From an uncultured bacterium (GTDB taxonomy: Bacteria > Planctomycetota > SZUA-567 > JAKLDR01), in NCBI GenBank assembly GCA_937935355.1, contig CALGYR010000109.1:403-64402 (forward strand): 64,000 nucleotides of DNA, written 5' to 3'. The notes beneath the pieces are model-generated. The model worked only from the letters and a program-made list of their open reading frames with translations. It was not told the DNA's origin and did no database searches. Of the stretch, positions 2,853-54,060 are shown one piece after another. How positions within the stretch are numbered: the stretch's first letter is position 1; each line of letters starts with the position of its first letter. The translations under genes were made by a program, and so were the position numbers.

Positions 2853-2862
2853 CGCGAAGGTT

Positions 2863-19761: not shown

Positions 19762-19767
19762 GGCGCT

Positions 19768-20538: not shown

Positions 20539-20621
20539 GGCCCCGATGGTAAGAGCTCCGGTCCGGCGCGCAACCGAAACCGGCTCGAAGCCGGCCAACG
20601 GCCATCGCCTGAAACGCGGTT

Positions 20622-20748
20622 CACCGCCGAGACGCTGAGCCGCCGAGACAAGATACTGGCCGCGGCAGAGGGCTTTTCTCTGCAAGAGCCGTCTGTCGCG
20701 TCCATAAGCCAGCTCTGCGCCTCCGCGCCTCTGCGGTGCAGGCACCTT
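20622..20748. repeat. Palindromic element of the CACCGC-GAGACGC ... CTCTGCGGTG family.
   Basis: Lies in the divergent intergenic region between rsmE and the histidine kinase. It shares both termini with the mtaB-internal element. Confidence 0.7.
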
Positions 20749-20825
20749 CTGAAACGGCCCTGGAAGCCGCCGGGGGGGCTGTGGATAATTGCCCCTGTCC
20801 GGGTTATATTCAGTGTGGAGGGACG

Positions 20826-23800
20826 CGTGCCGGTCAACCTCGCCAGATTCGCTCCGATGCTGCGGGAGCGCTCGGCGGACATCGTCGGGCGGGTGCTGGC
20901 GCCGTGCCCGGAGGGTCCCATCAGGCCGGACACCCCCCCGGAGGCCCGCGCCTTCTGGGAGATGGCCGGTCCTATGACCGTGACGGCCGTGGCCCAGTTC
21001 ATGGATGACGGGCTGACGCGATCGCGCGAGGAGTCCGGCGCGGGCGTCGCCCGGATGATGTCGGCCGGTGTCACCCTTACCGACTGCCTGGCCGCCAAAT
21101 CCGCATTCTGCAGAGAGATCGGGCGCACGGTCGAGTCCTGCGGCGGCGACGTCACCGCCGTGCTCGCCGCCGTGGAGGCCGCCGACCGGGTCATCGGCTG
21201 GGCCATGGATGCCTTCCTGGCTCACATCGAAAGCAGCCTGAGCGCCGAGCGCTCCGGGCTGCTCACCTCGCTGGAAGCCTTCGATGTCGTCGTCTTCCGG
21301 GCCGACCTGGATTCGCGGCTGCTGGCCGTGAACCGGGCCGGGGCCGCGGTGCTGGGCGCCGCGTCCCCTTCCGAGGTCATCGGGCGGCGCTTCGCCGAGT
21401 TCTACGCCGACGAGGCCGAGCGCGAGCGGCTGAGGGCGCTGCTGGCCGAGAACGGCGAGGTCCGCCAGTTCCGGTTCCGGCTACGCCGACTCGACGGCCA
21501 GGTGCGCTGGTGCGAGACCAACCTCAGGCGCATCGTCGATTCGTCCGGCCGGCCCGTCGGCCTCGAGGGTTTCGGACGGGACATCTCCGGGCTCTTGGAG
21601 ACCGAGGGCGCTCTGAAGCGCACCGAGAGCCGCTACCGCGAGCTCGTCGAGCTGGCCAACAGCATCATCCTGCGCATGGACACCGAGGGCCGCGTCACCT
21701 TCCTCAACGAATTCGGCGAGCGTTTCTTCGGGTTCCGCAAGGACGAGCTCGTCGGGCGCAACGTGATCGGCACCATCGTCCCGGAGACCGAGTCCTCCGG
21801 GCGCGACCTGAAGGCCCTGATCCTGGACATCGGCCGGAACCCCGACCGCTACGCGCTCAACGAAAACGAGAACCTGCGGCGCGACGGCGAGCGCGTCTGG
21901 ATCTCCTGGACCAACAGGGCGATTCGCGACGAGTCCGGGCGCATCACCGAACTGCTGTGCGTGGGCAGCGACTCGACCACGCGCAGGCGCGCCCAGGAGG
22001 AACTGCGCCGCTCCCAGGAGCTCTACCGCGACCTGGTGGAAAACCTCAACGACGCCATCTACACGGTGAACGAAGCCGGAGTCATCACCTACTGCAGCCC
22101 GGTGATCGAACGCATGTCCGGCTATCGTCCGGAGGAGATCGTCGGCCAGCCCTTCTCCCGGTTCGTTCACCCCGACGACATGGAACTGGTCGCCAGGGAA
22201 TTCGGCAAGGGCCTGGCCGGGGACGTCGAGCCCAGCACCTTCCGGATCGTGGCCAAGGACGGCACGGCCCGCTGGGCGCGCACCTCCACCCGGCCGGAGA
22301 TCGTCGACGGACGGGCCGTCGGCCTGCACGGACTGCTCGCCGACGTGACCGCCCTGTTCGAGGCCGAAGAGGCCCGCAAGCGCACCGCGCAACTGCTCGA
22401 CAAGCTGCCGATCTGCGCCTTCGAGATCGGCCAGGACAACCGCATCGCCACGATCAGCGCCGGCGGCCTGCGCATGGTCGGCGCGGCCGAACCGGCCCAG
22501 GTCGTCGGCCGCCCGGTGACCGACTTCTACGCGACGCCTTCGCAGGAGCCGGACCTCCGGGCCCGCGTGGCGGCCGACGAGCGGGGCGCGGTCATGCGCA
22601 TGCAGGTCCGGCGCCTTGACGGCACGACCTTCTGGGCCGAGGGCTTCGCCCGCACCGTGCGCAACGCCGCCGGAGAGGCCATGGGCCGCGAGGGGTTCCT
22701 GCGCGACATATCCGCCCTGGTCGAGGCCGAGCACGCCCTGGAAGCCGAGCGCGGACGCCTGGACCAGGTCGTGCGCTCCGTCGGCGCCGGCCTCTGCCTC
22801 GTCGACCGGGATCTGCGCATAGTCTGGGCCAACGATCTGCTGGCCAGGACCTTCGGGCCGCTAGACAAGATGGCCGGCTGCCTTTGCCACCGGATCTTCG
22901 CCCGCTCTGAGAGCGCCTGCCGGGAATGCCCGGCGCTCAGGACCTTCCAGGACGGCGGACAGCACGTGGCGGACATGCCCGTACCCGCGTCGGACGGAGG
23001 GCAGAGGATCATCCGCCTGACCACCTCGCCGGTCCGGGACGCCGACGGCCGCGTCGTGCAGGTCCTGGAACTGACCCAGGACGTCACCGAGGAGCGCGCC
23101 GCCGAGGGCGAGCGCGCGCGGACCGCCAGCCTGCTCTCCGGCATCCTCAGCTCGGCCGGCGAATACGCCATCGTGGCCACCGACGCCGGAGGCACGATCA
23201 ACTACTTCAGCGAGGGCGCCGAGCGGCTCTTCGGGGTCCGGCAGTCCGGACCGGTCGGCCGGCTGAACGTGGCCGACCTCTGGCCGCCGGAGTCCCGCGC
23301 GGCCCTGGCCGCCGCCCTCGAGGACCTGGGGCGCGGAGGACGCTACGAAGATGACGCCGAACTGCTCCGCGCCCAGGGCCTGACCTTCACCGCCCGGGTC
23401 TCCGGCACCTCGCGCCACGACGGCGACGGGACGCTCGCCGGCTACACCTTCGTGATCCGCGAAGTCACCGAGGAGCGCGCCGCCCAGAAGCTGGTGACGC
23501 TGCTGGCCCACGCCGTGGAGTCGAGCCGCGAGGGCATGGCCCTCACCGACATGTCCGGGGTGGTGACCTACGTCAACCCGGCCATCGCCGCCCTGACCGG
23601 GCGCGAGGCATCCGAACTGCTCGGCAAGGACGTCTCCATCATGTACTCGAAGGAGACCCCCGGCGAGGAGATCCGGGCCATCGCCCGCTCGACGCTGGCC
23701 GGCGGCTGGAGCGGCGAGGTCACCGGGGTGCGCGCCGACGGCTCGACCTACCCGGCGTACATGACCACCAGCCTGGTCCGCGACGAGCACGGCCGGGCGG

Positions 23801-25134
23801 TGGCCATGGTGGGCCTGTGGCGCGACGTCTCCCGGGAGAAGTCGCTGCAGCGGCGGCTCTTCGAGCAGGAGCAGCGCCACCTGGCCGAACTCGAGCGCCA
23901 GGTGCGCGAGCGCACCGCCGAACTGGAGCGCGCCTACCGCGACCTCCAGAAGCTCGACGCCATGAAGGACCGCTTCCTGACCAACGTCAGCCACGAGCTG
24001 CGCACCCCGCTGGTCAGCGGCGTCGGCTACATCGAACTGATCCTCCACGAGGGGCTCGGGCCCATCAACGAGGACATCCGCAAGGGCCTGCGCGTGGCCC
24101 ACCGCAACCTGCTCCGGCTGGTCAACCTCATCGACGACCTGCTGACCTTCACGCGGCTGGGCTCCGGCAAGGAGTCCATGGTGGTCGGCCGCTTCGACCT
24201 CGAGGCCATGATCAACGACTGCCTGCTCGACCTCAAGGTGCGGGCCAGCAAGAAGGCCCTGCACGTGGAGATGGACGTCGAGAAGGGCCTGCCGCCCGTG
24301 GAGGCCGATGAGGAGAACATCCACCGGGTCCTGACCAACCTGCTCTCCAACGCCGAGAAGTTCACCGGCGACGAGGCCGTCATCCGCGTCCAGGCCCGGC
24401 GGGTCTCGGAATCCCGCGTGGAGGTGCGGGTCTCCGACGACGGCGTGGGCATCCCCCCCGAGGAGCTCGCCCAGGTCTTCGAGCGGTTCTACCGCTCGCA
24501 CCGCACCGTCTCGCCGCGCTACGGCGGCACCGGCATCGGGCTCTCGCTCGTCCGCGAGATCCTCGAGGCCCACGGCTGCACGGTCCACGCCGAGAGCCCC
24601 GGGGAGCGTGGCACGATCGTCGTCTTCACCCTGCCGCTGGCGGCGAGCGCGGCACGAGCGACCCGCCGGGCGCCGGCGGCCGCCGTGTCGGAGCCGGAGC
24701 CGGCGCCCTATGGCCGGGGCCGCACCGGGGCCTCCATCCTGGTCATCGACGACGACCCGGACGTCCACGAACTGCTCCGGAGCATCCTGAAGGACAGCGG
24801 CAACCGCCTGGTCTCGGCGCAGAGCGGAGGCGAGGGCCTCGAAGCGGCGTCGTCCGGCGACTTCGACCTGATATTCCTGGACCTGTCCATGGAGGACATG
24901 GACGGGACCGAGGTGCTCGCCCGGCTCAGGCGGGAGGAGCGCAGCCGCCACACGCCGGTCTGCATGCTCACCGCCCGGGCCGACGACGGCACGCTCAAGG
25001 ACCCGCGCGCCTCCGGGGCCCAGGGCGTCCTGGCCAAGCCATTCTCCATAGCCGAGGTCCGCGAGGCCATCGACGAGTTCATGTCCGGAGGGGACTCCGA
25101 CCGGCCCAGCGGCCGGCTGCCGCGGGCGACCTGA
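20826..25134 (+). CDS. Multi-PAS hybrid sensor histidine kinase with a C-terminal receiver domain.
   Basis: GTG start after a GGAGGG RBS. At least 8 PAS-like segments. HisKA (SHELRTPL), HATPase (GTGIGL) and REC (ILVIDDDPD ... DLIFLDLSM ... KP) domains. The 2016-aa track ORF is a spurious upstream extension. Confidence 0.85.
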
Positions 25135-30919: not shown

Positions 30920-30944
30920 GGGCGGGGGCCTTCACGGGGAAAGG

Positions 30945-34755: not shown

Positions 34756-34785
34756 CTCCCTTCGTCAACCGGGCGGGCATTCTAA

Positions 34786-34962
34786 CCACGAAGCCACAAA
34801 GACACAAAGACACAAAGACACAAAGACACGAAGGAACACGAAGGACGGCAGCGACTTTCGTGTCCGCGGCGGAAGCTTCCGAGCTCATCGACGAACGTTG
34901 CCGCGCCCATGCCCCAATCTGTTCTTGGTGATGTCTTCGTGTCTTTGTGCCTTTGTGGTTGG
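34786..34962. repeat. Inverted tandem repeat (CACAAAGA)x4, a 78-nt loop, then (TCTTTGTG) units.
   Basis: Same family as the repeat at 33557. The two together bracket the GH130 gene. Confidence 0.85.
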
Positions 34963-37449: not shown

Positions 37450-38436
37450 TCAGCAGGCAGCCCCCGCGCCGGCCCGCGCGGTGATTTCGCGCTCGTGCAG
37501 GGCGCCGAGTCCCGGGTACATGCGCATCCCGATCCAGCGGACCAGCCGGTCGCGCAGGGTCACCCGGCCGCGGCGCAGGCAGGTCCTGACGAACTCGCCG
37601 CTGTACGAGTCGAAGTACGAGGCGTGCGGCACGCAGCGGGGGCGGCCGCGCTTGAGCACGATCCGGAGCACCTCCGGCGCGACGATGCCGGCGGCCAGGG
37701 ACATGGCCGAGGCGATGGCCGGGACGCGCTGATTCTCGAAGTCGACGTGCTCGCGGTCCATGACCGCCCCGACCGGCATGCTCCGGGGCGCGACCGCGCC
37801 GCGCAGCATGCCGATGGCCGCCCCCGCCGCCCAGGACCAGGGCATCGGCGGCAGGAGGCCCGCGCCGAAGGCCACCATGCGCTGGGCCCGGGTCATGCCC
37901 GGGACGATGCCGAAGTACTCGTCGAAGCCCATGCCCTGCGGGTCGAAGATCTGCAGCGACGCCCCGTGGCCGATGGGTGCGGAGGTCATGGCGTGGACGC
38001 CCTTCTCCCGGGCCTTCCGGAAGTAGAGGCGCCGCGCGTCGATCTGGAAGAAGTCGATGCCGTCGAGGGCCACGTCCACGTCCCGGAAGAACTCGTCGGC
38101 GTTGTCCTCGCCGAACGGCCGGGGGATGACCCGGATGCGCACCTCCGGGTTGATGGCCCGGACCATCTCGGCCATGACCTCGGCCTTGCCGCGGCCCAGC
38201 GTATGCGCGAAGGCGCCCACCTGGCGCTGGAGGTTGACCGGCTCGAAGCGGTCCGGGTCGGCGATCACGAAGCCGCCCACGCCCATGCGGGCCAGCGTCA
38301 CCAGGTAGTTTCCGCCAACCGCGCCGACGCCGGCGATGCCGACCGTCGCGCCGCGCAGCAGTTCCTGCTCGCGCTCGGCGACCATGCCGATGTTCCGGGA
38401 AGTGGCCTCGGAGTACGACCAGCCCGCCGCGCCCAT
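37450..38436 (-). CDS. ThiF/MoeB-family E1-like adenylyltransferase.
   Basis: GIAGVGAVGG Rossmann motif. The start overlaps the upstream stop (TGATG). Confidence 0.8.
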   Translation of the reverse strand: MGAAGWSYSEATSRNIGMVAEREQELLRGATVGIAGVGAVGGNYLVTLARMGVGGFVIADPDRFEPVNLQRQVGAFAHTLGRGKAEVMAEMVRAINPEVRIRVIPRPFGEDNADEFFRDVDVALDGIDFFQIDARRLYFRKAREKGVHAMTSAPIGHGASLQIFDPQGMGFDEYFGIVPGMTRAQRMVAFGAGLLPPMPWSWAAGAAIGMLRGAVAPRSMPVGAVMDREHVDFENQRVPAIASAMSLAAGIVAPEVLRIVLKRGRPRCVPHASYFDSYSGEFVRTCLRRGRVTLRDRLVRWIGMRMYPGLGALHEREITARAGAGAAC

Positions 38437-39413
38437 CAGAGCACCTCCTCGCGCCCGGCCGGGACCAGGCCGGCCCGTCGGCGCATGGCCTCGAGAGCCG
38501 CGCGCCGCTCCGGACTCTCCCCGGCCAGCAACTCCGGCCGGACGGAGAGGAAGTGGCGCAGCTCGGCCTCGCCCATCGGGCGGAGTTCCCGGGAGAGCTC
38601 GTCCACCGCCCCGGCCTCGCCGCTCTGCGGGATCCACAGGCGGTAGATGGTGCGGTGGCGCTCGGACTCGCCGATCCGGTCGGGGGTGCTCAGCGGTATC
38701 GAGCAGAGCACCGCCGGGGCCCCGCCGACCCGGTCGTAGGCGCGTTCCGGGCCGGCCTCGACGAAGAGCAGCTTGCGCCGATAAAAGCCGGCGTGGCGTG
38801 GATTGACGGTGATCACGAAGTCGGTGGCGCCGCGGATGCGGCGGGCCACGAGGTAGGCGAGGTTGAAGAGGCGAACCAACAACTCCGAGCCGGCGACGGT
38901 TTCCTCGTCGATGCCCAGGGAGACGATCTCGGCCAGGCGCCGGCCGCGCTCCCGCAGGGCGTCGAGCTCCGCGCCGAAGAGTCCGTCGGCCGGCAATCCC
39001 AGCGGCGAGTCGAAGACCACGGTGAGAGCGCCGACGGGGACGACGGCGGTGGAAGGTGGAAGGTGGAGGGTGGAAGACAAAAGGGCGGAGGCCGAACTGT
39101 CGCGATCGGCTCCTTCCACCTTCCACCCTCCACCTTCCACCAGGCGCTTTTCGGCCAGAAGCGTCACCGTGTCGGGCTGGGCGTCATGGATGGACATCCA
39201 CAGCCTCGAGGGATGCGGTCGGGCGTATTCCTTCTCAAGGTACAGGCGGTAGATCAGTCCATAGGCGCTCCGGCGGCTCGCCAGGTCGTTGGCCACGCGG
39301 ATGCGATACGCCGCCGCCGCGCCCACCGACGCGGGTCCCTCATAACCGGTGCGGGCGACATCGGGAGTTCCCTCCAGGGCCTTGAGTCTCTGGCTCAGCT
39401 TCGTGGTCTTCAT
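38436..39413 (-). CDS. FeeM-like GNAT-fold N-acyltransferase (N-acyl amino acid synthase family). It carries an in-frame insert encoded by a palindromic repeat.
   Basis: Start MKTTKL at 39413 with a GGGAGA RBS. N-terminal YRIRVANDL ... AYGLIYRLYLEKEY resembles the long-chain N-acyl amino acid synthase (Acetyltransf_5) family. The ORF continues uninterrupted through the repeat at 39049-39140. Confidence 0.5.
   Translation of the reverse strand: MKTTKLSQRLKALEGTPDVARTGYEGPASVGAAAAYRIRVANDLASRRSAYGLIYRLYLEKEYARPHPSRLWMSIHDAQPDTVTLLAEKRLVEGGGWKVEGADRDSSASALLSSTLHLPPSTAVVPVGALTVVFDSPLGLPADGLFGAELDALRERGRRLAEIVSLGIDEETVAGSELLVRLFNLAYLVARRIRGATDFVITVNPRHAGFYRRKLLFVEAGPERAYDRVGGAPAVLCSIPLSTPDRIGESERHRTIYRLWIPQSGEAGAVDELSRELRPMGEAELRHFLSVRPELLAGESPERRAALEAMRRRAGLVPAGREEVL
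39049..39140. repeat. Near-perfect palindromic element lying in frame inside the N-acyltransferase gene: (GGTGGAAG)x4, a 34-nt loop, then (CTTCCACC)x4.
   Basis: Read directly. Encodes ...VEGGGWKVEGADRDSSASALLSSTLHLPPSTAVV... within the ORF. Confidence 0.85.
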
Positions 39414-39594: not shown

Positions 39595-41994
39595 ATGAGC
39601 GCCAAGCAGACCGACGCAGAGGGTCCCGGCAGGAAGAAGTCCGGCGCGAACCGTCCTGCGCAATTGCATCCGGTGGTGGCCGAGTTCGAGGCCCACCCCA
39701 CCGGATTCATTGACAAGATGGGCGCAAGCCCGCGAGACCCGGCGGCGGCGGCCATTGTCAGGCTGAGCCGCGCGCTGTACGACGAAACCGGCGGCCGAGA
39801 GAAGCTGGCCTCGGTACGGGGCATGGACCTGGCCGGCTGCGACCCGGGGCTGGCCGTCCTGCTGCTGCAGGCCTGGGCCAAGCTGGCCACCCATCTCGAC
39901 CGGCCGGCCGAAGCCGCCACGGTGCTCAAGCGCGCCAGGCTGCTGCTCTCGCCGGACATGCCGGCCGGCCTGCACGCCGTCGTCCGCTTCGCCGAGGCCA
40001 TCCTGGCCTCTCATCGCGGCGACGTGCGGTCATACGGCGGCATGCTCGAGGAGACCCTCGAGCTCCTGCCGGAAAGTTCGCCTCACTACCCCCTCTACCT
40101 CATCAACTATGCGCTGCACCTGGCCCAGATGGGCCGGGCAACGGAAGTGCGCCCCCGACTGGAGCGGTTGCTGGCCGGGAATCCGCGGACCATTCACGTG
40201 ATCGACAGGATCAACTTCATCGACGCCCTGGAGTGCTGCCGGATCGAGGAGGCGGTGCGGCTCCACCCGCTCATCTCCCAGAACGTCCCCAGATTGGTGG
40301 GCTACGACCGGACCTACGAGTTCCTCTTCGACGTACTCCGCGACAAGATGCCCGCGCAAGCCGCCGCTCCATACGACAGCCAGCCGGGCTCCGCGCCGGA
40401 GTGGATCGCGGTGGTCGACCACCTCTTCGCCCGCCGGCCGGCCCGGGCGCTGGAGCTGGCCCGCCGCCTGGCCGCGGCCTCCCCGCGTCAGGCGCTCAGC
40501 GTCACGCGCTTCGACGCTTTCAACCTGATCCGGACCGAGTTGGCCAACGGCCGCGGCGAGGCGGCCAGGCGGCTGGTCGCCATGCGCCGCGAGATCGGCA
40601 ACCCCCACCATCTCGACGATCTCTTCCTGGCTCGCGCCGACCTGCTCGCCGGGGACCGCGCGGCGGCGGCCCGGCGCTTCGCCGCCGTCGACGGCGAGTG
40701 CCGCCGGCTGGGCGCCTCGGGCCGGGTGGATTTCGAGCTCCAGCTGGCCTGCGAGCTCCCGCCCCGCGACCTGGCCTTCCTGCTGTCGGCTGGAGGCGAG
40801 GCGGGGCGCGGCGCCCGGCGCGCCGGATCGTCCACGACCGCGGGCCCGTCTGCCGGGGGCGTCCCCGACGGCGGCCCGGCCGTCGGGATCGACCGCCTGA
40901 TCGGCCCCAGCCCGGCCATGGCCCGGATCCGCGAGTCCCTCGGCCGGCTGGCCGGCTCGGACCTGCCGGTGCTCATCACCGGCGAGACCGGGACCGGCAA
41001 GGAGGTGGTCGCCCGGGCGCTGCACGAGGCCTCGCCCCGGGCGGCGAAGCCCTTCGTGACCGTGAACTGCGGGGCCATTCCCGACTCGCTGCTCGAGTCG
41101 GAGCTCTTCGGCCACGCCCGGGGGGCTTTTACCGGCGCCGACCGCGCGGCGCGGGGGCTCTTCCTCGAGGCCGCCGACGGCGACATCCTGCTCGACGAGA
41201 TCGGCGAGATCTCCCCGCGGCTGCAGGTGGCCCTGCTGCGCGTGCTCGAGAGCGGCGAGGTCCGGCCGGTGGGCGCGCCCCGCGCGCAGCGGATCCGCTG
41301 CCGGGTGCTGGCCAGCACCAACGCGGACCTCTCCGCGGCCGTGGAGAAGGGCCGCTTCCGCCGCGACCTCTTCTACCGGCTCAGGCGGCTGCTCGTGCAC
41401 ATCCCGCCGCTCGGCGAGCGGCGCGAGGACATTGTGCCGCTGGCGCGGCATTTCCTCAACGAGGGCCGCCCCGGCGGCGAGGCCGCCGCCATGGAGCCGG
41501 AGCTCGAGGCGGAGCTCGCCCGTCGCGACTGGCCCGGCAACGCCCGGGAACTGCGCAACGCCATGGAGCGCCTGCGGCTGCTCAACTCCGACGGCCTGCG
41601 CTACTCGCTGGCGAGCTGGCGCCGGTCCGCGGCGGACGAACCGGAGGCGCCGGCCACCGGCCCGGCTGGGGCCGCCGCCCCCGACGCGCCTGCCGGCGGG
41701 ACCGAGGCCGCGGCGGACACGCCCCCCGCATCGGCTCCCGCGCCGGCCGCGGACGTCGCCGGCTTCCTGCGCGAGGGCCGCACCCAGTTCCGGCGGCTCG
41801 ACCGCCTGCGGGAGCTCTTCCGGCGGCACGGCAAGCTCAGCCGCACCGAGGCCGCGCGCATCCTGGGCGTGTCGCTCCGCACCGCCACCATGGACCTGAA
41901 GGTCCTGTGCCGCGAGGGGCTGGTCGAGAAGGTGGCGCCGACCGCCTCGCCGCGGACGCACTACTTCAGGACGAGAGACGGCGCAGGCGGCTGA
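39595..41994 (+). CDS. Sigma-54-dependent transcriptional activator (bacterial enhancer-binding protein) with an N-terminal TPR-like sensory region.
   Basis: AAA+ sigma-54 interaction domain (GETGTGKE, GAFTGA, ESELFGH). Divergent from the sigma-54 promoter operon. Confidence 0.85.
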   Translation: MSAKQTDAEGPGRKKSGANRPAQLHPVVAEFEAHPTGFIDKMGASPRDPAAAAIVRLSRALYDETGGREKLASVRGMDLAGCDPGLAVLLLQAWAKLATHLDRPAEAATVLKRARLLLSPDMPAGLHAVVRFAEAILASHRGDVRSYGGMLEETLELLPESSPHYPLYLINYALHLAQMGRATEVRPRLERLLAGNPRTIHVIDRINFIDALECCRIEEAVRLHPLISQNVPRLVGYDRTYEFLFDVLRDKMPAQAAAPYDSQPGSAPEWIAVVDHLFARRPARALELARRLAAASPRQALSVTRFDAFNLIRTELANGRGEAARRLVAMRREIGNPHHLDDLFLARADLLAGDRAAAARRFAAVDGECRRLGASGRVDFELQLACELPPRDLAFLLSAGGEAGRGARRAGSSTTAGPSAGGVPDGGPAVGIDRLIGPSPAMARIRESLGRLAGSDLPVLITGETGTGKEVVARALHEASPRAAKPFVTVNCGAIPDSLLESELFGHARGAFTGADRAARGLFLEAADGDILLDEIGEISPRLQVALLRVLESGEVRPVGAPRAQRIRCRVLASTNADLSAAVEKGRFRRDLFYRLRRLLVHIPPLGERREDIVPLARHFLNEGRPGGEAAAMEPELEAELARRDWPGNARELRNAMERLRLLNSDGLRYSLASWRRSAADEPEAPATGPAGAAAPDAPAGGTEAAADTPPASAPAPAADVAGFLREGRTQFRRLDRLRELFRRHGKLSRTEAARILGVSLRTATMDLKVLCREGLVEKVAPTASPRTHYFRTRDGAGG

Positions 41995-48580: not shown

Positions 48581-48596
48581 AAAGGAGTTGGGACCA

Positions 48597-51272
48597 ATGA
48601 AGACAGCATCTGCCGTTCTTGCCGGCCTGATCCTCTGCGCGGCTTTCGCGGCTGGCGGTGAAGCCTCCCCGCCGCAGCGGGCGAACTTCACCGCCAAGCC
48701 CGCCGTGGCCAAGGCCGGCGACAAATTTACGATCACTTTCACGGTCGCAGGCCCCACCGACGCCGAGGTGGCCGTGCTCGACGCCGGCGGCAAGGTCGTC
48801 CGCCACCTGGCCGCCGGGATGCTCGGAGGGGAGAAGCCGCCTCCCGAGCCGCTCAAGCCGGGTCTCGCGCAGTCGCTCGAGTGGGACCTGAAGGATGACG
48901 CCGGGAAACCCGCCTCCGGCGGACCATTCAAGGTGCGCGTCAAGCTCGGGCTCAAGCCGGAGTTCGACGGCTTCCTGCTCGACAACCCGGTCGGCACCGG
49001 CTCGATCGGCGCGCTGGCTGTCGGCCCGGGCGGGCAGCTCTACATCTGGCACCACGACTGCACCGCCAACGGCAACCAGGGAGCCGAAAAGCTGAAAGTG
49101 ATCGGCCGCGACGGCAAGTACGTCCGCACGCTCATCCCTTACCCCGCCAACCTGTCACCCGAGAAGGCCAAGGTGTTGGGCGCCTTCCTCGACGACGACG
49201 GGAGCCTCGTGCCGCGGGTCTACAACATCCAGCAGCTCAACCTGAACTACGAGGGCCGCGGCGACCGCGGCCCGTCCATGATGGGCTTCTCCTGCCCGGC
49301 GGTGGATGGGAAGGGCCGGGCCTACTGGCTGGTCCGCGGCGGCCAACTGGAGTGCGTCGAGGCCGACGGCAGTTCGCCCTACGACACGTTCCTGAGCCCG
49401 CCGATCGTGGCCGGTTTCAAGGCGTTGGTCGGCCGCCCGGCGCTGTGCCCCGCCTCGGATGACAAGGGCCTCTACGTCTCCGGTCTGGGCGCGGCCGACG
49501 ACAGCTGGGGCAAGAACTCACGGGCGCTGCCCGCCGTCTGGCTGATCGACACGGCCACGCGCAAGGCCGAGGTCTTCGTCGGCAACCTCGAGGAGACCGG
49601 TAAGGAGAAGGACCGCCTGACCGCGCCGCGCGGCGTGGCCGCGGCCAAGGGGCTGCTCTACGTGGCCGACCCCGGAGCGGACCGCGTGGCGGTCTTCAAG
49701 GAGGCCGACCGCTCCTTCGCCGGCGAGATCAAGGTGAAGGACCCGCAGAGCATCGGCGTCGACCCGGCCACCGGTGCAGTGTACGTCTGCGCCTACACCG
49801 GCAAGGGGACCGCCGACCTCATCAAATTCGAGAAGTACGACACCGGCAAGGAGCTCTACAGGATCGCCCTGCCCAAGACCGGGCTCTCTCCCAACGGCGG
49901 GGTCCACCGGATCGCGGTCGATGCCTCGGCCAAGCCCGTGCTGGTCTACGTCCCGGGGCTGCCCTACGGCCCGCCCTTCACCCGCATCGAGGACGCCGGC
50001 GACAAGTTCCAGATCACGGCCGACCCGCGCGACCTCAAGCGCGCCTGGGCGCCCGGGCCCCGCGACCTGACGTTCGACCGCGCCCGCGGCGAGCTCTACG
50101 TCAAGGGCGGCTCGGACCAGCGCTACTTCCGGGTCGAGGAGAAGACCGGCAAGGTCACCGAGCTCGTCAAGATCGCCGGCGGCGGGGCCGCGGGCAGCCA
50201 GCTGGTGGCCTCGCCGGACGGCAGCCTGGTGATCTACGGCTGGGGGGAGATGGGTCTGCGCCACCTCGACCGCGACGGCAAGCCGCTCAACTGGCCGGGA
50301 CGGGACACCAACGCGATCAAGTACAGCGGGATCATGACCTTCATGCAGCGCTACATGGCGCTGCCCAGGGACGACGAGATATTCATCATCCTGCCGCCGG
50401 AATACCGCAAGAACCCCAAGTCGAGCGGCGGCGACTACAGCTCGGTCAACGTCCTGGGCACAGACGGCGGGACCAAGCGCACGGTCATCTGGCAGTGCAC
50501 CGCCGGGGCGGTCCTGCGGGTCGACGCCAGGGGCAACATCTACCTCGCCGAGATGCTGAAGCCCGCCGGCCGGCTCTATCCGGAGTTCTTCGACGGGAAG
50601 ATCGGGAAGATCCCCAGGGGCAAGTCGGTGGGCGGCCTGAGCGGCAACCCCGAGGGGGCCGCCGCATTCTGGGAAAGCAACATGTACGGCAGCATCGTCA
50701 AGTTCCCGCCGTCGGGCGGGGTCATCTGGTACAACAAGGACCTGCCCCACGGCGTGGAGGGCGCTCCGCCGGCCGAGCTCCTGGCCAAGCCCAAGCTCAC
50801 CTTCGACACGCACATCGGCTACGGCTACAAGCCGGTCGAGGTGCAGGGCGCCGAGTGGGTGCGCTTCGGCTTCTCGCCCTACGGCGTGACCCGCGGCGCC
50901 GGCTTCTGCATGTGCGAGGGCGCCGGCTTCGACGTCGACGGCTACGGGCGCGTCTTCTACCCGAACCTCGGCCAGTTCCGGATCGAGGTCGTGGACAACG
51001 CCAACAACAGGATCGGGACGTTCGGCAAGTACGGCAACCAGGACGACGGCGGGGCGGGGGACGGGGGGCGAGGGGCGAGCGGGAAAGGGAAGAGCGAGGG
51101 CGCCGATTCAGGGACCCGCACCTCGCCCCCCGCACCCCGCTCCATTCCATTGGCCTGGCCGACCTACGTGGCCGTCTCCGACGACTACGCCTACGTCAAC
51201 GACACGCTCGCCAACCGCGTGGTCCGGGTGAAGCTCGGCGCGGCTGCGGAGGAGAGTTGTGAGGTGAAGTAG
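48597..51272 (+). CDS. Secreted 891-aa beta-propeller repeat protein (NHL-like repeats).
   Basis: ATG 9 nt after an AAAGGAG RBS. Signal peptide. Repeats of the YVADPGADRVAVF type. Tandem paralog of the gene at 51328. Confidence 0.7.
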   Translation: MKTASAVLAGLILCAAFAAGGEASPPQRANFTAKPAVAKAGDKFTITFTVAGPTDAEVAVLDAGGKVVRHLAAGMLGGEKPPPEPLKPGLAQSLEWDLKDDAGKPASGGPFKVRVKLGLKPEFDGFLLDNPVGTGSIGALAVGPGGQLYIWHHDCTANGNQGAEKLKVIGRDGKYVRTLIPYPANLSPEKAKVLGAFLDDDGSLVPRVYNIQQLNLNYEGRGDRGPSMMGFSCPAVDGKGRAYWLVRGGQLECVEADGSSPYDTFLSPPIVAGFKALVGRPALCPASDDKGLYVSGLGAADDSWGKNSRALPAVWLIDTATRKAEVFVGNLEETGKEKDRLTAPRGVAAAKGLLYVADPGADRVAVFKEADRSFAGEIKVKDPQSIGVDPATGAVYVCAYTGKGTADLIKFEKYDTGKELYRIALPKTGLSPNGGVHRIAVDASAKPVLVYVPGLPYGPPFTRIEDAGDKFQITADPRDLKRAWAPGPRDLTFDRARGELYVKGGSDQRYFRVEEKTGKVTELVKIAGGGAAGSQLVASPDGSLVIYGWGEMGLRHLDRDGKPLNWPGRDTNAIKYSGIMTFMQRYMALPRDDEIFIILPPEYRKNPKSSGGDYSSVNVLGTDGGTKRTVIWQCTAGAVLRVDARGNIYLAEMLKPAGRLYPEFFDGKIGKIPRGKSVGGLSGNPEGAAAFWESNMYGSIVKFPPSGGVIWYNKDLPHGVEGAPPAELLAKPKLTFDTHIGYGYKPVEVQGAEWVRFGFSPYGVTRGAGFCMCEGAGFDVDGYGRVFYPNLGQFRIEVVDNANNRIGTFGKYGNQDDGGAGDGGRGASGKGKSEGADSGTRTSPPAPRSIPLAWPTYVAVSDDYAYVNDTLANRVVRVKLGAAAEESCEVK

Positions 51273-51403
51273 GGACTGAGGTACTAAGGTACTAAGGGAC
51301 TAAGGCACTGAGTGAACGGAGAACAGCATGGCAACCGAATTGGCGAGTCCGGCAGCGCGTGCAAAGCACACTAAGTGCCTGAGTGCCTTAGTGCCTCAGT
51401 GCC
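51272..51403. repeat. Inverted tandem repeat (GGACTAAG/GTACTAAG units, a loop, then GCCTTAGT/GCCTCAGT units).
   Basis: The right arm encodes the hydrophobic core of the signal peptide of the gene at 51328 (HTKCLSALVPQCLLLL). Confidence 0.8.
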
Positions 51404-54060
51404 TCTTGCTGCTAGCAGGGCTCGCCTCCGCCGGCGAGGCCTCGTTCGCCGCCAAGCCGACCGCGACGAAGGCCGGCGACAAGTTCACGATCCGCTTCGC
51501 AGTCGCCGCGGCCACTGACGTCGAGGTCGCGGTGCTCGACGCCGGCGGCAAGATCGTGCGCCACCTGGCCGCCGGCGTGCTCGGGGCGAAGACGCCGCCG
51601 CCGGAGCCGCTCAAGTCGGGACTCGCCCAGTCGATCGAGTGGGACGGCAAGGACGACGCCGGGAAGCCCGCGGCGGGCAGCCCCTTCAAGGCCCGCGTCC
51701 GTCTGGGCCTGAAGCCCGAGTTCGACCGCTTCATGCTCTACGAGCCTGACGCGTTTCCGGGAGTGAGCGCCCTGGCCACCGGGCCGAAGGGCGAGGTCTA
51801 CGCTTTCTACAAGGACCCCACCGCCAACGGCAACCAGGGCGGGTTCAAGGTCCGGATCATCACCCGCGAGGGCAGATTCGTCCGCCAGATCCTGCCCTTC
51901 CCCGCCGACCTGCCCCACGACAAGGTCAAGGCCAGCGGGGCTTTCCAGGACGGGGACGGGAGCCTTGTGCCGCAACTGCACAACTGGCACACGATGCGCT
52001 TCTATCCGGACACGGTCCCGGCACGGAACAGGAGCTTCCCCGGTTTCGGGCAGCCGGTCGTGGACGCCTCCGGCCGGCTCTACTGGATCATCGGCGACGG
52101 CCGGCTCTGCGCCCTGGACGCCGACGGCGGCATCCCGTACGAGACGTACCTCAGCGAGCCGCTCTTCCCGGGCTTCCCCAACGCCGCCACCCACGGCCAC
52201 GGGCCGACGCTGTGCATGAGCTCCGACGGCAAGCACCTCTACGCCACCAGCACCCACGCCAAGGACGGCTGGGGCGGCGGGACCCAAGCCATCCCCTGCG
52301 TCTGGCGCATCGACGCGGCCACGCGCAAATCGGAGGTCTTCGTCGGGAAGCCCGATCAGGCCGGCAAGGAGAAGGAGTTGCTCTCCAGTCCCCGCGGCGT
52401 GGCCGCCGCCCAGGGGCTCCTCTACGTCGCCGACCCGGAGGCGGGGCGGGTGGCGGTCTTCAAGGAAGAGGACCGCTCGTACGTCGGCGAGATCAAGTGC
52501 GTCCTGCCGCACATCGTACACGTCCACCCCAAGACCGGCGCGGTCTACGTGGTCAGTTACGTGCCCGAGGCCAAACCCAGAGGCGACGGGAAGTGCCGCA
52601 TCACCGACGCGAACCTCTTGAAGTTCAAGAGCTACAAGGACGAGAAGCCGGCGGTCACCATGCCGCTGCCGCGGACGGGGCTGAGCCCCAACGGGGGCGC
52701 CCACCGCATCGCGCTGGACGCCTCGGCCGAGCCGCCGCTCCTCTGGGCGCCGGGGCTGCCCTACGCGCGGGGAGCGGCCAGCCATCTCGCCTGCTACCGC
52801 GACGTGGGAGAGAAGATCGAGCCGGTGGACGTGCCCTCCCCCAAGGGCCCCTGGGGCAACGGCCCGCGCGACCTGGTGGTCGACCGCGCCCGCGGCGACC
52901 TCTACGTCAAGGTCCAGGGCGAGCAGTGGCACCAGTTCGAGGAGGCCACCGGCAAGTACGTCCGCCTGGTCAGCTTCGACAAGAACAAGGGCGGCCCCTA
53001 CGCAGGCAGCTCCGGATCGCAGTTGGGCATCGATGCCTCGGGCGACTACGTCCTGCACTGCTGGGGCGACAAGGCCGGGCTGATGCGCTGGAGCCGGGAC
53101 TTGAAGCCCCTCAACTGGGAGGGCAGGGACACCAACCGCAGCGAGTGGGGCGGAATGATGACCTTCCAGCTGAACTACCTGGCGCTGCTGGGCAATGACA
53201 TCTACGTGATCAAGCCCGTCAAGGGCCCGCACAACGTGGAGGTCTACGACCAGGGACTCAAGGTCAAGCGCCGCGTCGTCTGGAACGTCCGGCGCGGCAG
53301 TTGCCTGCGGGTCGACGCGAAGGGCAACATCTACACCACCGTTCCGCTCCGGCCGGCCGATCGAGACTTCGAGGAGTTCTTCGACGGCAAGCTCGGGAAG
53401 ATCCCCGACTACTACAACGGGGTCGGCAACGGCCCGCACTACTGGTACACCTACATGGCCGGGGCCATCGTCAGGTTCCCGCCGGAGGGAGGGGCCTTCC
53501 TCTGGACGGGCGACAAGGAGGCCGGCGAGGTCGCCGCCGACCTGCCCGAGAAGGTCGCCGCCAGGCCCAGGGTCAAGTGCCAGTACTTCCCCGGCGGCCA
53601 CCACCCGCACAAGACCTGCGAAGTCCAGGGCGCCGACTGGATCCGCTTCGGCTACGCGCCCTACTCCGAGACCTACGGCGCGGGTACGCCCGTGTGCATG
53701 TGCGAGGGCGCGGGCTTCGACGTCGACGGCTGGGGCCGGGTGTGGCACACCAACCTCTTCCGCTTCCGGGTCGAGGCTGCCGACGCGGCCAACAACACGA
53801 TCGCGACGTTCGGCGCCTACGGCAACCAGAACTCGCAGGGCGCAGGCAAGGGGCTCCCGGCAGCGGAAGGCGGCACGGAGGGCTCAGTCGGGAAGACCGC
53901 GGCTGCGAAGAGCGGACCGCGCCACCAGGACATCCCTCTGGCCTGGCCGACCTACGTGGCCGTCTCCGACGACTACGCCTACGTGAACGACACCGTTGAC
54001 ATGCGCGTGGTCCGCGTCAGGCTCGGTGCGGCGGCCGAGGCAACTTGCGAGGTGAAGTAA
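51328..54060 (+). CDS. Secreted 910-aa beta-propeller repeat protein, paralog of the gene at 48597..51272.
   Basis: Collinear similarity throughout, including the C-terminus IPLAWPTYVAVSDDYAYVNDT. The N-terminus is partly encoded by the repeat. Confidence 0.7.
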   Translation: MATELASPAARAKHTKCLSALVPQCLLLLAGLASAGEASFAAKPTATKAGDKFTIRFAVAAATDVEVAVLDAGGKIVRHLAAGVLGAKTPPPEPLKSGLAQSIEWDGKDDAGKPAAGSPFKARVRLGLKPEFDRFMLYEPDAFPGVSALATGPKGEVYAFYKDPTANGNQGGFKVRIITREGRFVRQILPFPADLPHDKVKASGAFQDGDGSLVPQLHNWHTMRFYPDTVPARNRSFPGFGQPVVDASGRLYWIIGDGRLCALDADGGIPYETYLSEPLFPGFPNAATHGHGPTLCMSSDGKHLYATSTHAKDGWGGGTQAIPCVWRIDAATRKSEVFVGKPDQAGKEKELLSSPRGVAAAQGLLYVADPEAGRVAVFKEEDRSYVGEIKCVLPHIVHVHPKTGAVYVVSYVPEAKPRGDGKCRITDANLLKFKSYKDEKPAVTMPLPRTGLSPNGGAHRIALDASAEPPLLWAPGLPYARGAASHLACYRDVGEKIEPVDVPSPKGPWGNGPRDLVVDRARGDLYVKVQGEQWHQFEEATGKYVRLVSFDKNKGGPYAGSSGSQLGIDASGDYVLHCWGDKAGLMRWSRDLKPLNWEGRDTNRSEWGGMMTFQLNYLALLGNDIYVIKPVKGPHNVEVYDQGLKVKRRVVWNVRRGSCLRVDAKGNIYTTVPLRPADRDFEEFFDGKLGKIPDYYNGVGNGPHYWYTYMAGAIVRFPPEGGAFLWTGDKEAGEVAADLPEKVAARPRVKCQYFPGGHHPHKTCEVQGADWIRFGYAPYSETYGAGTPVCMCEGAGFDVDGWGRVWHTNLFRFRVEAADAANNTIATFGAYGNQNSQGAGKGLPAAEGGTEGSVGKTAAAKSGPRHQDIPLAWPTYVAVSDDYAYVNDTVDMRVVRVRLGAAAEATCEVK

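What the first reader, a model, noticed from the sequence alone, without database searches (positions are those of the whole stretch)
39049..39140. Near-perfect (GGTGGAAG)x4 / (CTTCCACC)x4 palindrome lying in frame inside the N-acyltransferase gene
A 92-bp hairpin element sits inside ORF 38436..39413 without breaking the frame. It adds about 33 aa (VEGGGWKVEGADRD ... HLPPSTAVV) between the N-terminal FeeM-like motif block and the C-terminal half.

This is the second in-frame case in the window, and it uses a different unit family. That suggests the elements tolerate insertion into coding sequence, or are selected for it.
Basis: seen in the sequence. Interest (0 to 1): 0.7.

Follow-up and report, generated by a model that had tools for sequence, protein, structure and literature searches.

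The report
In-frame heptamer hairpin inside FeeM gene
A 94-bp DNA palindrome, each arm made of four 7-base repeats, is translated as a floppy surface loop of an otherwise normal N-acyl amino acid synthase, and relatives of the gene carry it at the same spot, with arms far better conserved than the gene around them.

Summary
The repeat unit is 7 nt (GGTGGAR), not 8. There are 4 units per arm, at 39048-39076 and 39113-39141, with a 36-nt spacer.

The palindrome lies in frame in a 325-aa FeeM-family gene (38436-39413, minus strand). It adds 31 residues at the tip of a beta-hairpin. The AlphaFold model shows these residues as a disordered loop. The gene is intact and under purifying selection.

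The window holds about 12 hairpins whose arms are tandem 7-10-nt repeats. They are mostly intergenic, and this is one of them. The insert is not private to this genome. Many FeeM homologs of 45-55% identity carry a heptamer hairpin in the same loop, with at least four unit types in the same phase, and some are nested doubles.

Between the window and one such relative, the arms are 93% identical. The spacer is at 31% and the rest of the gene at 62% (53% at third positions).

The same GGTGGAR hairpin also sits in frame in DnaG, RsmD-like, RecD-like and Mfd-like genes of unrelated contigs with about 50% GC.

Best reading: a tolerated, translated palindromic repeat element, analogous to RPEs and intragenic REPs but built from paired heptamer arrays. 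I found no evidence of phase variation. What keeps the arms conserved is unresolved.

The parts
39113..39141 (-). Arm that comes first in the gene's reading direction. On the sense strand it reads GGTGGAA-GGTGGAG-GGTGGAA-GGTGGAA-G and encodes VEGGGWKVEG.
   Evidence: It is 28/29 identical to the ortholog on L143, although the genes share only 62% nt identity.
39077..39112 (-). 36-nt spacer (hairpin loop with a short inner stem GGAGCCGA/TCGGCCTCC). It encodes roughly ADRDSSASALLS.
   Evidence: The stretch compared (35 nt, offset by 1 nt from these coordinates) is not conserved: 11/35 identical to L143 and 10/35 to L033.
39048..39076 (-). Second arm in the reading direction. On the sense strand it reads C-TTCCACC-CTCCACC-TTCCACC-TTCCACC and encodes S-TLHLPPST.
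   Evidence: It is 26/29 identical to L143. In the closest relative, L032, this arm carries 4 uncompensated substitutions.
38436..39413 (-). Host gene: a FeeM-family N-acyl amino acid synthase (GNAT-like fold), 325 aa, intact.
   Evidence: Pfam PF21926, E = 8e-42. PDB FeeM 2g0b matches by sequence and by fold, target-normalised TM 0.82. There are 122 homologs. 30 synonymous versus 16 non-synonymous codon differences to L032.
39144..39167 (-). Codons of beta-strand residues 83-90 (TLLAEKRL), immediately before the insert.
   Evidence: AlphaFold2 model m03dffd5486a7, strand E83-90.
39012..39044 (-). Codons of beta-strand residues 124-134 (VVPVGALTVVF), immediately after the insert.
   Evidence: AlphaFold2 model, strand E124-134. 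Residues 95-119 have pLDDT below 50.
39595..41994 (+). Divergently transcribed sigma-54-dependent activator. A sigma-54 activator also lies next to the insert-bearing FeeM homologs, which gives a shared gene context.
   Evidence: Pfam Sigma54_activat, E = 3e-62. A sigma-54 activator lies next to FeeM on L154/L155, L156, L158 and L160/L161.
51054..51140 (+). The other periodic hairpin inside an ORF in this window. It has G-rich heptamer arms (GGGGCGR type) in a linker of the 894-aa NHL-repeat protein 48588..51272.
   Evidence: (I21).

Best explanation
**What it is**

The feature is an intragenic copy of a class of small palindromic elements that is abundant in this genome. In this class, two short tandem arrays of a 7-10-nt unit face each other across an unconserved spacer. 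This copy has 4 x GGTGGAR, a 36-nt spacer and 4 x YTCCACC.

It lies in the codons for the turn of a beta-hairpin of a FeeM-type N-acyl amino acid synthase. It is transcribed and translated with the gene and adds a 31-residue disordered surface loop.

**Why it is tolerated**
- Shown: the GGTGGAR unit has no stop codon in any of the six frames.
- Shown: the insert is 93 nt, a multiple of three.
- Shown by model: the site is a solvent-exposed turn.

**History**
- Shown: the insertion is old and shared. The same loop carries a heptamer hairpin in many FeeM homologs.
- Shown for L143: the window's copy and the L143 copy have the same boundaries, register and length. L032 and L033 have the same total length, and one search shows the same start and frame in the other GGTGGAR copies.
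- Shown: the distribution on the protein tree is patchy.
- Inferred: the element has been passed on vertically, and also lost or exchanged by recombination or gene conversion between FeeM genes.

**Maintenance of the arms (inferred)**
- DNA-level processes typical of such repeats probably keep the arms alike and palindromic. These are replication slippage within the arrays, template switching between the two arms, and perhaps conversion from other copies.
- Selection on the protein removes only variants that create stops or frameshifts.

**Function (inferred)**
- For the enzyme the element is most likely a passenger.
- Likely side effects are a very stable hairpin inside the mRNA (-78 kcal/mol), which could be a target for double-strand-specific RNases or slow translation, and a local hotspot for recombination or deletion.
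For: **Anatomy and significance:**

**Class membership**
- About 12 hairpins in the window have arms with period 7-10. They are mostly intergenic and their spacers are unrelated.
- They are depleted from coding sequence: 2-3 of 12-13 lie in ORFs, against at least 81% coding.

**Host gene intact**
- Pfam FeeM.
- PDB FeeM by sequence and by fold.
- 30 synonymous versus 16 non-synonymous codon differences to L032.

**Loop location**
- The insert lies between strands 83-90 and 124-134, with pLDDT below 50 at residues 95-119.
- Homologs without an insert have a 4-6-residue turn there.

**Shared with homologs**
- About 19 of 110 homologs carry an insert at this loop.
- The DNA shows unit types GTGGAAG, GCTGAAG, GCTACAG and GCAGCAG in the same phase and frame, and nested double hairpins in L156 and L157.
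- All fold into long hairpins, -47 to -124 kcal/mol.
- A sigma-54 activator lies next to FeeM in these loci too.

**Selection acts on the reading frame**
- In the GCTGAAG and GCTACAG copies, the imperfect units sit exactly where a perfect unit would give an in-frame TGA or TAG.

**Recombination and patchiness**
- P0015 and P0017 are 100% identical in the 3' half and about 10% diverged in the 5' half, and they carry inserts of different unit types.
- Bootstrap tree: (window, P0001) groups with the insert-less P0003 at 96%, and P0036 (GGTGGAR type) groups with P0048 (GCTGAAG type) at 100%.

**Same element in frame elsewhere**
- L081 carries it in DnaG, an RsmD-like methyltransferase and a RecD-like helicase. 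The Pfam domains of the first two are split.
- L139 carries it in an Mfd-like gene.

**Precedents**
- Paired convergent heptamer arrays with a preference for four units, mostly intergenic and 7-11% intragenic, in Xanthomonas (PMC4692102).
- In-frame intragenic REPs and RPEs (PMC3733652).
Against: **Arm conservation is too high for a neutral passenger.**
- Window versus L143: the arms are 54/58 identical, the spacer 11/35, the rest of the gene 62%, and third positions 53%.
- Among the five orthologs with GGTGGAR units, identical codons at four-fold sites are 80% in the arms and 54% elsewhere. This holds even though the arms use rare codons: GGT makes up 3 of 99 Gly codons elsewhere.
- This calls for nucleotide-level selection or an active homogenising process. 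I inferred such a process but did not demonstrate it.

**The closest pair points the other way.**
- In L032 the second arm has 4 uncompensated changes, so the hairpin is not strictly maintained.

**Other gaps**
- No second GGTGGAR copy exists in the 64-kb window or on the ortholog contigs. Conversion from other genomic copies therefore has no visible donor.
- GCTGAAG-type inserts that share the same Cys codon occur in separate, well-supported clades. Simple vertical descent cannot explain this.
Confidence: 0.5

Rival explanations
1. The hairpin is a selected nucleic-acid element inside the ORF. As an mRNA or DNA structure, or as a repeated sequence motif, it would regulate the gene. Possible modes are RNase III-type cleavage, translational pausing between the N- and C-terminal parts of the fold, and binding of a factor that recognises the heptamers. 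Under this view the peptide is a by-product.
For: - The arms are 93% identical between orthologs whose genes are 62% identical, while the spacer is at background.
- Synonymous sites and rare Gly codons in the arms are conserved.
- When the unit type differs between orthologs, both arms differ together, so hairpin potential is always kept.
- The RNA stem is very stable, -78 kcal/mol, z = -7.6.
Against: - Many close relatives lack the insert altogether, including P0003, the sister of the window's lineage at 96% bootstrap.
- L032's second arm is decaying without compensation.
- P0015 has lost one arm.
- Differences within arms between the window and L143 are not compensatory.
- The window contains many different unit sequences, which argues against one sequence-specific factor.
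- Covariation of arms is also what independent insertion or template switching would produce.
Confidence: 0.2
2. It is a mobile, coding-compatible palindromic element, a true analog of RPEs or MITEs. It would insert repeatedly, or home by gene conversion, into this loop and into other genes. The different unit types would be different element families, not in-situ descendants.
For: - GGTGGAR hairpins occur in many unrelated contexts and in genomes of 47-69% GC.
- They are in frame in DnaG, RsmD-like, RecD-like and Mfd-like genes.
- Subsets share related spacers, for example GGAGAATAC... in L081, L090 and L139, and CCCAAAGTGTGA... in L069, L110 and L127.
- Insert types are patchy on the FeeM tree.
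- Nested double hairpins occur.
- The Thr-Ala codons are possibly duplicated on both sides of the insert in L156 and L157.
Against: - Among FeeM copies the spacers are unrelated.
- There is no clear target-site duplication and no conserved termini beyond the repeats.
- There is no second GGTGGAR copy in the window.
- All FeeM inserts share the same site, orientation, frame and heptamer phase. This fits common descent or homologous exchange better than repeated transposition.
- No transposase candidate was examined.
Confidence: 0.17
3. The inserted peptide has acquired a protein-level function, such as an interaction or localisation loop. Its conservation would then reflect selection on amino acids.
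For: - Amino-acid identity in the arm-encoded segments is 85%, against 56% for the rest of the protein, among orthologs with GGTGGAR units.
- The insert is retained in many lineages.
Against: - Synonymous positions and rare codons are conserved too, which protein-level selection does not explain.
- The segment is predicted to be disordered.
- Other orthologs encode entirely different peptides at the same place, such as AEGCGLKAEG..., ATDYRLQTTG... and AVGSRQQAAG..., or none at all.
Confidence: 0.08
4. It is a phase-variable on/off switch. Gain or loss of one 7-nt unit would shift the frame and silence the gene reversibly.
For: - The unit length is not a multiple of three.
- The arms can pair in slipped registers (I24).
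- One homolog's contig (L163) breaks exactly at the insert site.
Against: - There are only four imperfect units per arm.
- The insert length is identical in the window and in L032 despite 5% nucleotide divergence.
- Proteins P0010 and P0015 recur unchanged on 4 and 6 contigs from different samples.
- No frameshifted allele was found. The contig break in L163 is what assemblers produce at palindromes.
Confidence: 0.04
5. It is an assembly artefact or a chance read-through of two ORFs.
For: None found.
Against: - Independent assemblies from other samples show the same structure.
- Homologs are continuous.
- The FeeM domain and fold span both sides of the insert.
Confidence: 0.01

Closest known systems
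Rickettsia palindromic elements (RPEs; Ogata et al. 2000, from my own knowledge; summarised in PMC3733652)
   Same: Both are short palindromic repeats found in frame inside genes for functional proteins. Both are translated as extra peptide segments that do not destroy the fold, and copies also occur in intergenic DNA.
   Different: RPEs are defined sequence families of about 100-150 bp, conserved along their whole length and specific to Rickettsia. Here only the arms are conserved, the arms are tandem heptamers, the spacer is free, and the hosts are Planctomycetota (and, for the same unit, Bacteroidota-like contigs).
Intragenic GTAG/CGTC-tagged REPs (Di Nocera et al. 2013, PMC3733652)
   Same: Both are small palindromes that are mostly intergenic, with a minority inserted in frame in known proteins, often replication and repair genes, encoding 20-30 aa. 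They are reported in the PVC superphylum (Opitutus terrae). The DnaG, RecD-like and Mfd-like cases seen here echo that bias.
   Different: There is no GTAG or CGTC tag at the stem end. The arms are internally repetitive with period 7. No RAYT association was examined.
Paired convergent heptameric simple-sequence arrays in Xanthomonas (GGGAATC; Rehm et al. 2015, PMC4692102) and heptamer-rich long SSRs of large high-GC genomes (Mrazek et al. 2007, as cited there)
   Same: Both have 7-nt units and a preference for about four units. Both have two arrays on opposite strands close together that can form a stem-loop. Both are mostly intergenic, with 7-11% intragenic.
   Different: In Xanthomonas one unit dominates the genome and has GGG tracts that form G-quadruplexes. 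This window holds many unit families of 7, 8, 9 and 10 nt. Retention at one orthologous in-frame site with arm conservation, as seen here, was not among the passages I read in that paper.
Foldback (FB) transposons of Drosophila (from my own knowledge)
   Same: In both, the inverted terminal arms are themselves built of short tandem repeats, and the middle is variable.
   Different: FB elements are eukaryotic and kilobase-scale, and some copies are associated with a transposase. They do not lie in frame in coding sequence.
[quoted passage not shown] 2010, PMC2996958)
   Same: Both are coding sequences with dyad symmetry that can be read on either strand, are spread patchily across phyla and diversify proteins.
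   Different: PARCELs are tandem 25-residue structured domains in surface proteins of unknown function. They are not a single hairpin inserted into a loop of an enzyme.

Membership tests
Paired (convergent) heptameric SSR arrays / long SSRs | Head-to-tail tandem copies of a 7-nt unit | tested here: met
   TRF reports period 7, 4.1 and 4.3 copies, 90-91% matches.
Paired (convergent) heptameric SSR arrays / long SSRs | Two arrays of the same unit on opposite strands in close proximity, able to form a stem-loop | tested here: met
   29-nt arms, 93% complementary, 36 nt apart. Folds have z = -6.4 (DNA) and -7.6 (RNA).
Paired (convergent) heptameric SSR arrays / long SSRs | Mostly intergenic genome-wide, with a minority intragenic | tested here: met
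   2-3 of 12-13 periodic hairpins lie in ORFs, against at least 81% coding sequence. Only 64 kb were sampled.
Paired (convergent) heptameric SSR arrays / long SSRs | G-tracts of three or more G able to form a G-quadruplex (the Xanthomonas/Nostoc type) | tested here: inconclusive
   The unit has mostly GG tracts, with one GGG per arm. No G4 prediction or experiment was done.
RPE-like in-frame palindromic element | Palindromic element lying in frame in a gene whose product keeps its fold | tested here: met
RPE-like in-frame palindromic element | Multi-copy family conserved along the whole element within one genome | tested here: not met
   There is a single GGTGGAR copy in the window. Spacers are unrelated between copies. 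A whole genome was not available.
REP (GTAG/CGTC-tagged, RAYT-associated) | GTAG or CGTC tetranucleotide at one end of the stem | tested here: not met
   Sequence read directly. The flanks of the stem are GACGGC / AGGCGC. A CGTC lies 2-3 nt outside the stem on the sense strand in the window but is absent in L143, L156 and L157.
REP (GTAG/CGTC-tagged, RAYT-associated) | Associated RAYT (Y1 transposase) gene in the genome | not tested
   Only 64 kb were available and no scan for RAYT was made.
MITE | Target-site duplication flanking the terminal inverted repeats | tested here: inconclusive
   The window shows no direct repeat. In L156 and L157, Thr-Ala codons (ACAGCG / ACCGCT) flank the insert. 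This is weak and could be chance.
MITE | Dispersed copies with a homologous internal sequence | tested here: not met
   Some non-FeeM GGTGGAR copies on other contigs do share related spacers.
Phase-variable contingency SSR | Unit-number differences between close strains that switch the reading frame | tested here: not met
   The window and L032 have the same length. Unchanged proteins recur on 4-6 contigs. No population-level reads were available.
FeeM-family N-acyl amino acid synthase (host gene) | Match to Pfam PF21926 above the gathering score, and the FeeM fold | tested here: met
   143 bits against a cut-off of 27. 2g0b matches at E = 1.4e-8 by sequence and with target-normalised TM 0.82 by fold.
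FeeM-family N-acyl amino acid synthase (host gene) | N-acyl amino acid synthase activity | not testable with these tools
   This needs an enzyme assay or heterologous expression.
PARCEL | Tandem arrays of a 25-residue amphipathic motif | tested here: not met
   This is a single hairpin with a 7-residue peptide period in the arms. The definition comes from PMC2996958.

The most novel reading that the evidence does not exclude
GGTGGAR-armed hairpins, and their sister unit types, form a cross-phylum class of coding-compatible palindromic elements. They are free of stop codons in all six frames and colonise loops of housekeeping and biosynthetic enzymes in frame. An active, sequence-specific process would hold their arms constant: homing or gene conversion between copies, or a trans-acting protein or nuclease that recognises the heptamer arrays. 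That would explain arms at 93% identity while the host gene has drifted to 62% and the spacer to background. It would also explain why discrete unit types swap at one orthologous site. This would be a new kind of selfish or maintained element, not a passive repeat.
Probability: 0.2. Interest if true: 0.8.

Novelty: new variant of a known kind. Interest (0 to 1): 0.58.

Why it matters
In-frame palindromic repeats are known from Rickettsia (RPEs) and from some REP families. Paired heptamer arrays are known from Xanthomonas intergenic DNA.

This locus joins the two and adds a time axis. One insertion site can be followed through dozens of diverged homologs of a single enzyme.

It shows the following:
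- Such a hairpin can persist in frame for a long time.
- Its arms are conserved far better than the protein-coding sequence around it, while the spacer is not.
- The repeat unit can be exchanged while period, phase, frame and palindromy are kept.
- Deviations from a perfect repeat fall exactly where stop codons would arise.

This makes the locus a natural test bed for two questions. One is how palindromic simple-sequence elements are generated and maintained (slippage and template switching versus mobility versus selection). The other is how they add disordered loops to proteins.

There are also practical consequences. These elements break assemblies and create spurious small ORFs: more than 100 clusters of 30-95-aa 'proteins' in the public databases are translations of this repeat.

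Tried and rejected
- **Rfam scan of the whole window.** There were no matches at gathering thresholds, so no described RNA family covers these hairpins.
- **Exhaustive HMMER search of 1.84 billion representatives with the 35-aa insert peptide.** It gave one weak hit, because the query is too short to be informative.
- **Word-indexed protein search with an idealised 55-aa translation of the element.** It returned only 30-95-aa ORFs called over such hairpins. This shows the hairpins are widespread but did not list large host proteins.
- **Literature search for the literal repeat strings.** No paper was found. Searches on 'STRR'/heptanucleotide terms were mostly noise.
- **Ortholog DNA look-ups.** P0006 and P0013 are not on record. 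The P0054 contig simply starts at the insert site, so it says nothing about frameshifted alleles.
- **Elevated substitution rate in the element between the window and L032.** The rates are 8/94 inside and 42/884 outside, p = 0.13, which is not significant. I dropped the claim.
- **Programmed -1 frameshifting.** I read the sequence upstream of the hairpin in the window and in the orthologs and saw no conserved slippery heptamer. Rejected.
- **REP membership.** No GTAG or CGTC tag is present. Rejected.
- **My first automatic census of tandem-armed hairpins** was too strict and missed most of the window's elements. It was replaced.
- **A Biopython bootstrap** timed out and was replaced by a numpy implementation. 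The trees are neighbour-joining only, so deep nodes are weak.
Full report
**1. The observation**

The window is 69.4% G+C. At 39048-39141 it holds two facing arrays of a 7-nt unit:
- GGTGGAA-GGTGGAA-GGTGGAG-GGTGGAA-G at 39048-39076.
- Its near-complement, C-TTCCACC-TTCCACC-CTCCACC-TTCCACC, at 39113-39141.
- A 36-nt spacer lies between them.

Further measures:
- The arms are 29 nt long and 93% complementary. Slipping the register by one unit gives a perfect 22-nt pairing.
- The 16-mer GGTGGAAGGTGGAAGG with up to 3 mismatches occurs six times, all within this element, against 0.61 expected.
- As single-stranded DNA the region folds at -43.9 kcal/mol, z = -6.4.
- As sense-strand RNA it folds at -78 kcal/mol, z = -7.6.

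The unit length (8) is wrong; it is 7.

**2. The host gene**

The minus-strand ORF 38436..39413 encodes 325 aa.
- It matches Pfam FeeM (PF21926) at E = 8e-42. The match falls in two stretches, and the break is at the insert.
- It matches the FeeM crystal structure 2g0b by sequence.
- An AlphaFold2 model (mean pLDDT 80.8) matches 2g0b by fold with target-normalised TM 0.82.
- In the model the insert (residues about 91-123) lies between two adjacent strands, 83-90 and 124-134. Residues 95-119 have pLDDT below 50. It is therefore an extension of a beta-turn on the surface.
- Against the closest relative (P0001 on L032, 95% aa identity, an independent assembly), the gene differs at 50 of 978 nt. 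These give 30 synonymous and 16 non-synonymous codon changes, so there is purifying selection.
- A sigma-54 activator lies next to the gene, transcribed divergently, here and in several homologs' loci.
- The family is found mainly in Planctomycetota MAGs. The window's own genome is not in the reference genome set.

**3. The element belongs to a class that fills the window**

Tandem Repeats Finder and the inverted-repeat search show about 12 hairpins whose arms are tandem repeats of 7-10 nt:

| Unit | Position(s) |
|---|---|
| CACAGATGMA | 1973-2082 and 2755-2830 |
| AGCCAAC | 29224-29309 |
| AAGGCAG | 30937-31053 |
| CACAAAGA | 33556-33709 and 34784-34960 |
| GTCGGACCG | 48538-48580 |
| GGGGCGR | 51054-51140 |
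| AGGNACTA | 51287-51404 |

- Their spacers are unrelated to each other.
- Rfam has nothing for them.
- Only this element and 51054-51140 are clearly inside ORFs; 19295-19427 is uncertain. At least 81% of the window is coding.
- The class is therefore strongly depleted from coding sequence. This argues against 'selected for insertion into genes' as a general rule.

**4. The insert in relatives of the gene**

Among 110 homologs of 250 aa or more, about 19 have a long insert at exactly this turn. All of them are in the subfamily closest to the query. The others have a 4-6-residue turn, for example LAER-TADGEA-VG in P0003.

I fetched the DNA of ten homologs. At codon level the inserts are all heptamer hairpins, with four unit types that share the same phase and frame:
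- GTGGAAG: window, L032, L033, L143, L156, L157.
- GCTGAAG: L155.
- GCTACAG: L158.
- GCAGCAG: L159.

Further points:
- L156 and L157 carry a nested double hairpin, with two arms on each side.
- Each insert folds into a long stem, -47 to -124 kcal/mol as RNA.
- The GGTGGAR unit is stop-free in all six frames.
- In the GCTGAAG and GCTACAG copies, the units that deviate from the consensus are exactly those where the consensus would put TGA or TAG in frame: GGC TGT instead of GGC TGA, and CTG CAG / CTG AAG instead of CTG TAG. This is a clear trace of selection for an open frame acting on an otherwise repetitive sequence.
- P0015 has lost most of one arm.

**5. Conservation pattern: the surprising part**

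Window versus L143 (P0004, 52% aa identity):

| Region | Identity |
|---|---|
| First arm | 28/29 |
| Second arm | 26/29 |
| Spacer | 11/35 |
| Rest of the gene (all positions) | 62% |
| Rest of the gene (third codon positions) | 53% |

The inserts in the window, L032, L033 and L143 have the same total length. Those of the window and L143 also have the same boundaries and register.

Across the five orthologs with GGTGGAR units:
- Codons at four-fold-degenerate amino acids that are identical in both sequences match 80% of the time in the arms and 54% elsewhere.
- This holds although the arms use rare codons. GGT accounts for 3 of 99 Gly codons elsewhere.
- Amino-acid identity is 85% in the arm-encoded segments and 56% elsewhere.

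Protein-level selection alone does not explain this. Yet the hairpin is not strictly protected:
- In L032 the second arm has four uncompensated substitutions.
- The differences between the window and L143 are not compensatory.

The pairs are not independent, and I have DNA for few lineages. I treat the pattern as solid in direction but not quantified.

**6. History**

A bootstrapped neighbour-joining tree with the insert columns removed gives:
- (window, P0001) with the insert-less P0003: 96%.
- P0036 (GGTGGAR) with P0048 (GCTGAAG): 100%.
- The GCTGAAG, GCTACAG and GCAGCAG types nested inside a GGTGGAR-bearing clade: 89%.

Further observations:
- GCTGAAG inserts in three places on the tree share the same stop-avoiding Cys codon.
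- P0015 and P0017 are identical over the 3' half and about 10% diverged over the 5' half, and they carry different insert types. This is a recombinant pair.

The distribution is therefore patchy. Either an old insertion was lost precisely several times, or inserts move between FeeM genes by homologous exchange. Many genomes have several FeeM paralogs. Repeated site-specific insertion is also possible. I cannot separate these options with neighbour-joining trees and the DNA at hand.

**7. The same unit elsewhere**

- Among 120 loci, about a dozen carry palindromic pairs in non-FeeM contexts, in contigs of 47-69% G+C and in both orientations.
- On L081 (about 50% G+C) the hairpin is in frame in a DnaG primase, an RsmD-like methyltransferase and a RecD-like helicase. 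The Pfam domains of the first two are split at the insert.
- On L139 it is in frame in an Mfd-like protein.
- These copies share a related spacer (GGAGAATAC...), so in that genome the element behaves like a true dispersed family.
- More than 100 clusters of 30-95-aa database 'proteins' are simply translations of such hairpins.

**8. What is known**

- Rehm et al. 2015 (PMC4692102) describe GGGAATC heptamer arrays in Xanthomonas. They show a preference for four units, 70-75 convergent pairs able to form stem-loops, a mostly intergenic location and 7-11% intragenic copies.
- That paper cites Mrazek et al. 2007 for the general excess of heptamer SSRs in large high-GC genomes.
- Di Nocera et al. 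2013 (PMC3733652) describe tagged REPs and RPEs inserted in frame in known proteins, including in the PVC bacterium Opitutus and often in replication and repair genes.
- PARCELs (PMC2996958) are a more distant parallel.
- The present element works like an RPE or an intragenic REP and is built like the Xanthomonas paired arrays. It fails the defining tests of REP (no tag), of RPE (no whole-length family) and of a classical MITE (no clear target duplication, no shared core).

**9. Verdict**

The finding is real and is not an artefact.

The most likely explanation (confidence about 0.5) is a tolerated, translated palindromic simple-sequence element in a surface turn of a functional FeeM enzyme. 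It is old, shared with relatives, and shaped by slippage or template switching together with selection for an open frame.

The main unexplained fact is the very high conservation of the arms relative to the gene. This keeps two other readings alive: a selected nucleic-acid function (0.2) and an actively mobile or homing element (0.17). Phase variation is unlikely (0.04).

Novelty: a new variant of known kinds. Interest: moderate to fairly high, because the locus offers a rare evolutionary series for this type of element.

Noticed in passing
window 51054-51140 (inside ORF 48588..51272, +): A second periodic hairpin lies inside an ORF. Its G-rich heptamer arms (GGGGCGR / CCCCGCA-like) encode part of the linker ...DDGGAGDGGRGASGKGKSEGADSGTRTSPPAPRS... 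of an NHL-repeat protein. The adjacent paralog (51328..54060) has an equally long but different linker at the same place and no detected hairpin.
   Followed up: partly
window 1973-2082, 2755-2830, 29224-29309, 30937-31053, 33556-33709, 34784-34960, 48538-48580, 51287-51404 (also arrays at 119-190, 949-1016, 18240-18350, 43890-43918, 63527-63600): The window holds a dense population of intergenic hairpins whose arms are tandem 7-, 8-, 9- or 10-nt repeats of many different units. Their spacers are unrelated. They amount to roughly one per 5 kb, mostly between same-strand genes. No Rfam family matches them.
   Followed up: partly
window 19295-19427: A hairpin with CGCAGAGA-type arms falls inside the long ORF 19084..25134, a PAS/histidine-kinase/receiver protein. 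It is about 70 codons from the ORF's first possible start. The best Pfam stretches reported for this protein begin only near residue 980. It may be in the 5' leader and not in frame in the protein.
   Followed up: no
L081 2136-2240, 4437-4535, 6488-6545; L139 608-700: In Bacteroidota-like metagenome contigs of about 50% GC, GGTGGAR hairpins lie in frame in DnaG, an RsmD-like methyltransferase, a RecD-like helicase and an Mfd-like protein. Their spacers are related (GGAGAATAC...). The Pfam domains DNAG_N and Cons_hypoth95 are split at the inserts.
   Followed up: partly
L069 448-532, L110 871-965, L127 492-590: Three GGTGGAR hairpins in the opposite orientation (CCTTCCACC...GGTGGAAGG) share a related palindromic spacer (CCCAAAGTGTGAnCGCTnAnACTTTGGG) but have different flanks. 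This suggests a dispersed family with a conserved core in some genomes.
   Followed up: no
L158 versus L160 (P0017 versus P0015): The two FeeM genes are 100% identical over the 3' half and about 10% diverged over the 5' half. The switch lies roughly 170 nt downstream of the hairpin, and the inserts are of different unit types. This is a recombinant, or possibly chimeric, pair.
   Followed up: partly
L156 3001-4059 and L157 667-1812: These genes carry nested double hairpins (arm-spacer-arm ... arm-spacer-arm) that encode 55 extra residues. It looks as if a second copy was inserted into, or duplicated within, the spacer of the first.
   Followed up: partly
L034 (Ga0163179_10008697), 1336-6020: A 6.7-kb metagenome contig carries about eight different heptamer-armed hairpins (CTCACGG, GCGTCGG, CCCCTGA, CGTGAGG, TGGGGCC, GCCACAG, ACTCCCA...). 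The many-unit situation is therefore not unique to the window's organism.
   Followed up: no
window 54116-54196 and 25158-25345: Two perfect, non-periodic inverted repeats lie in intergenic DNA: 33-nt arms 15 nt apart, and 29-nt arms 130 nt apart. They are a different kind of palindrome from the tandem-armed class.
   Followed up: no
proteins P0121-P0240: More than 100 clusters of 30-95-aa 'hypothetical proteins' in the public protein collections are translations of GGTGGAR hairpins. They are probably spurious gene calls, made possible because the unit has no stop codon in any frame.
   Followed up: no
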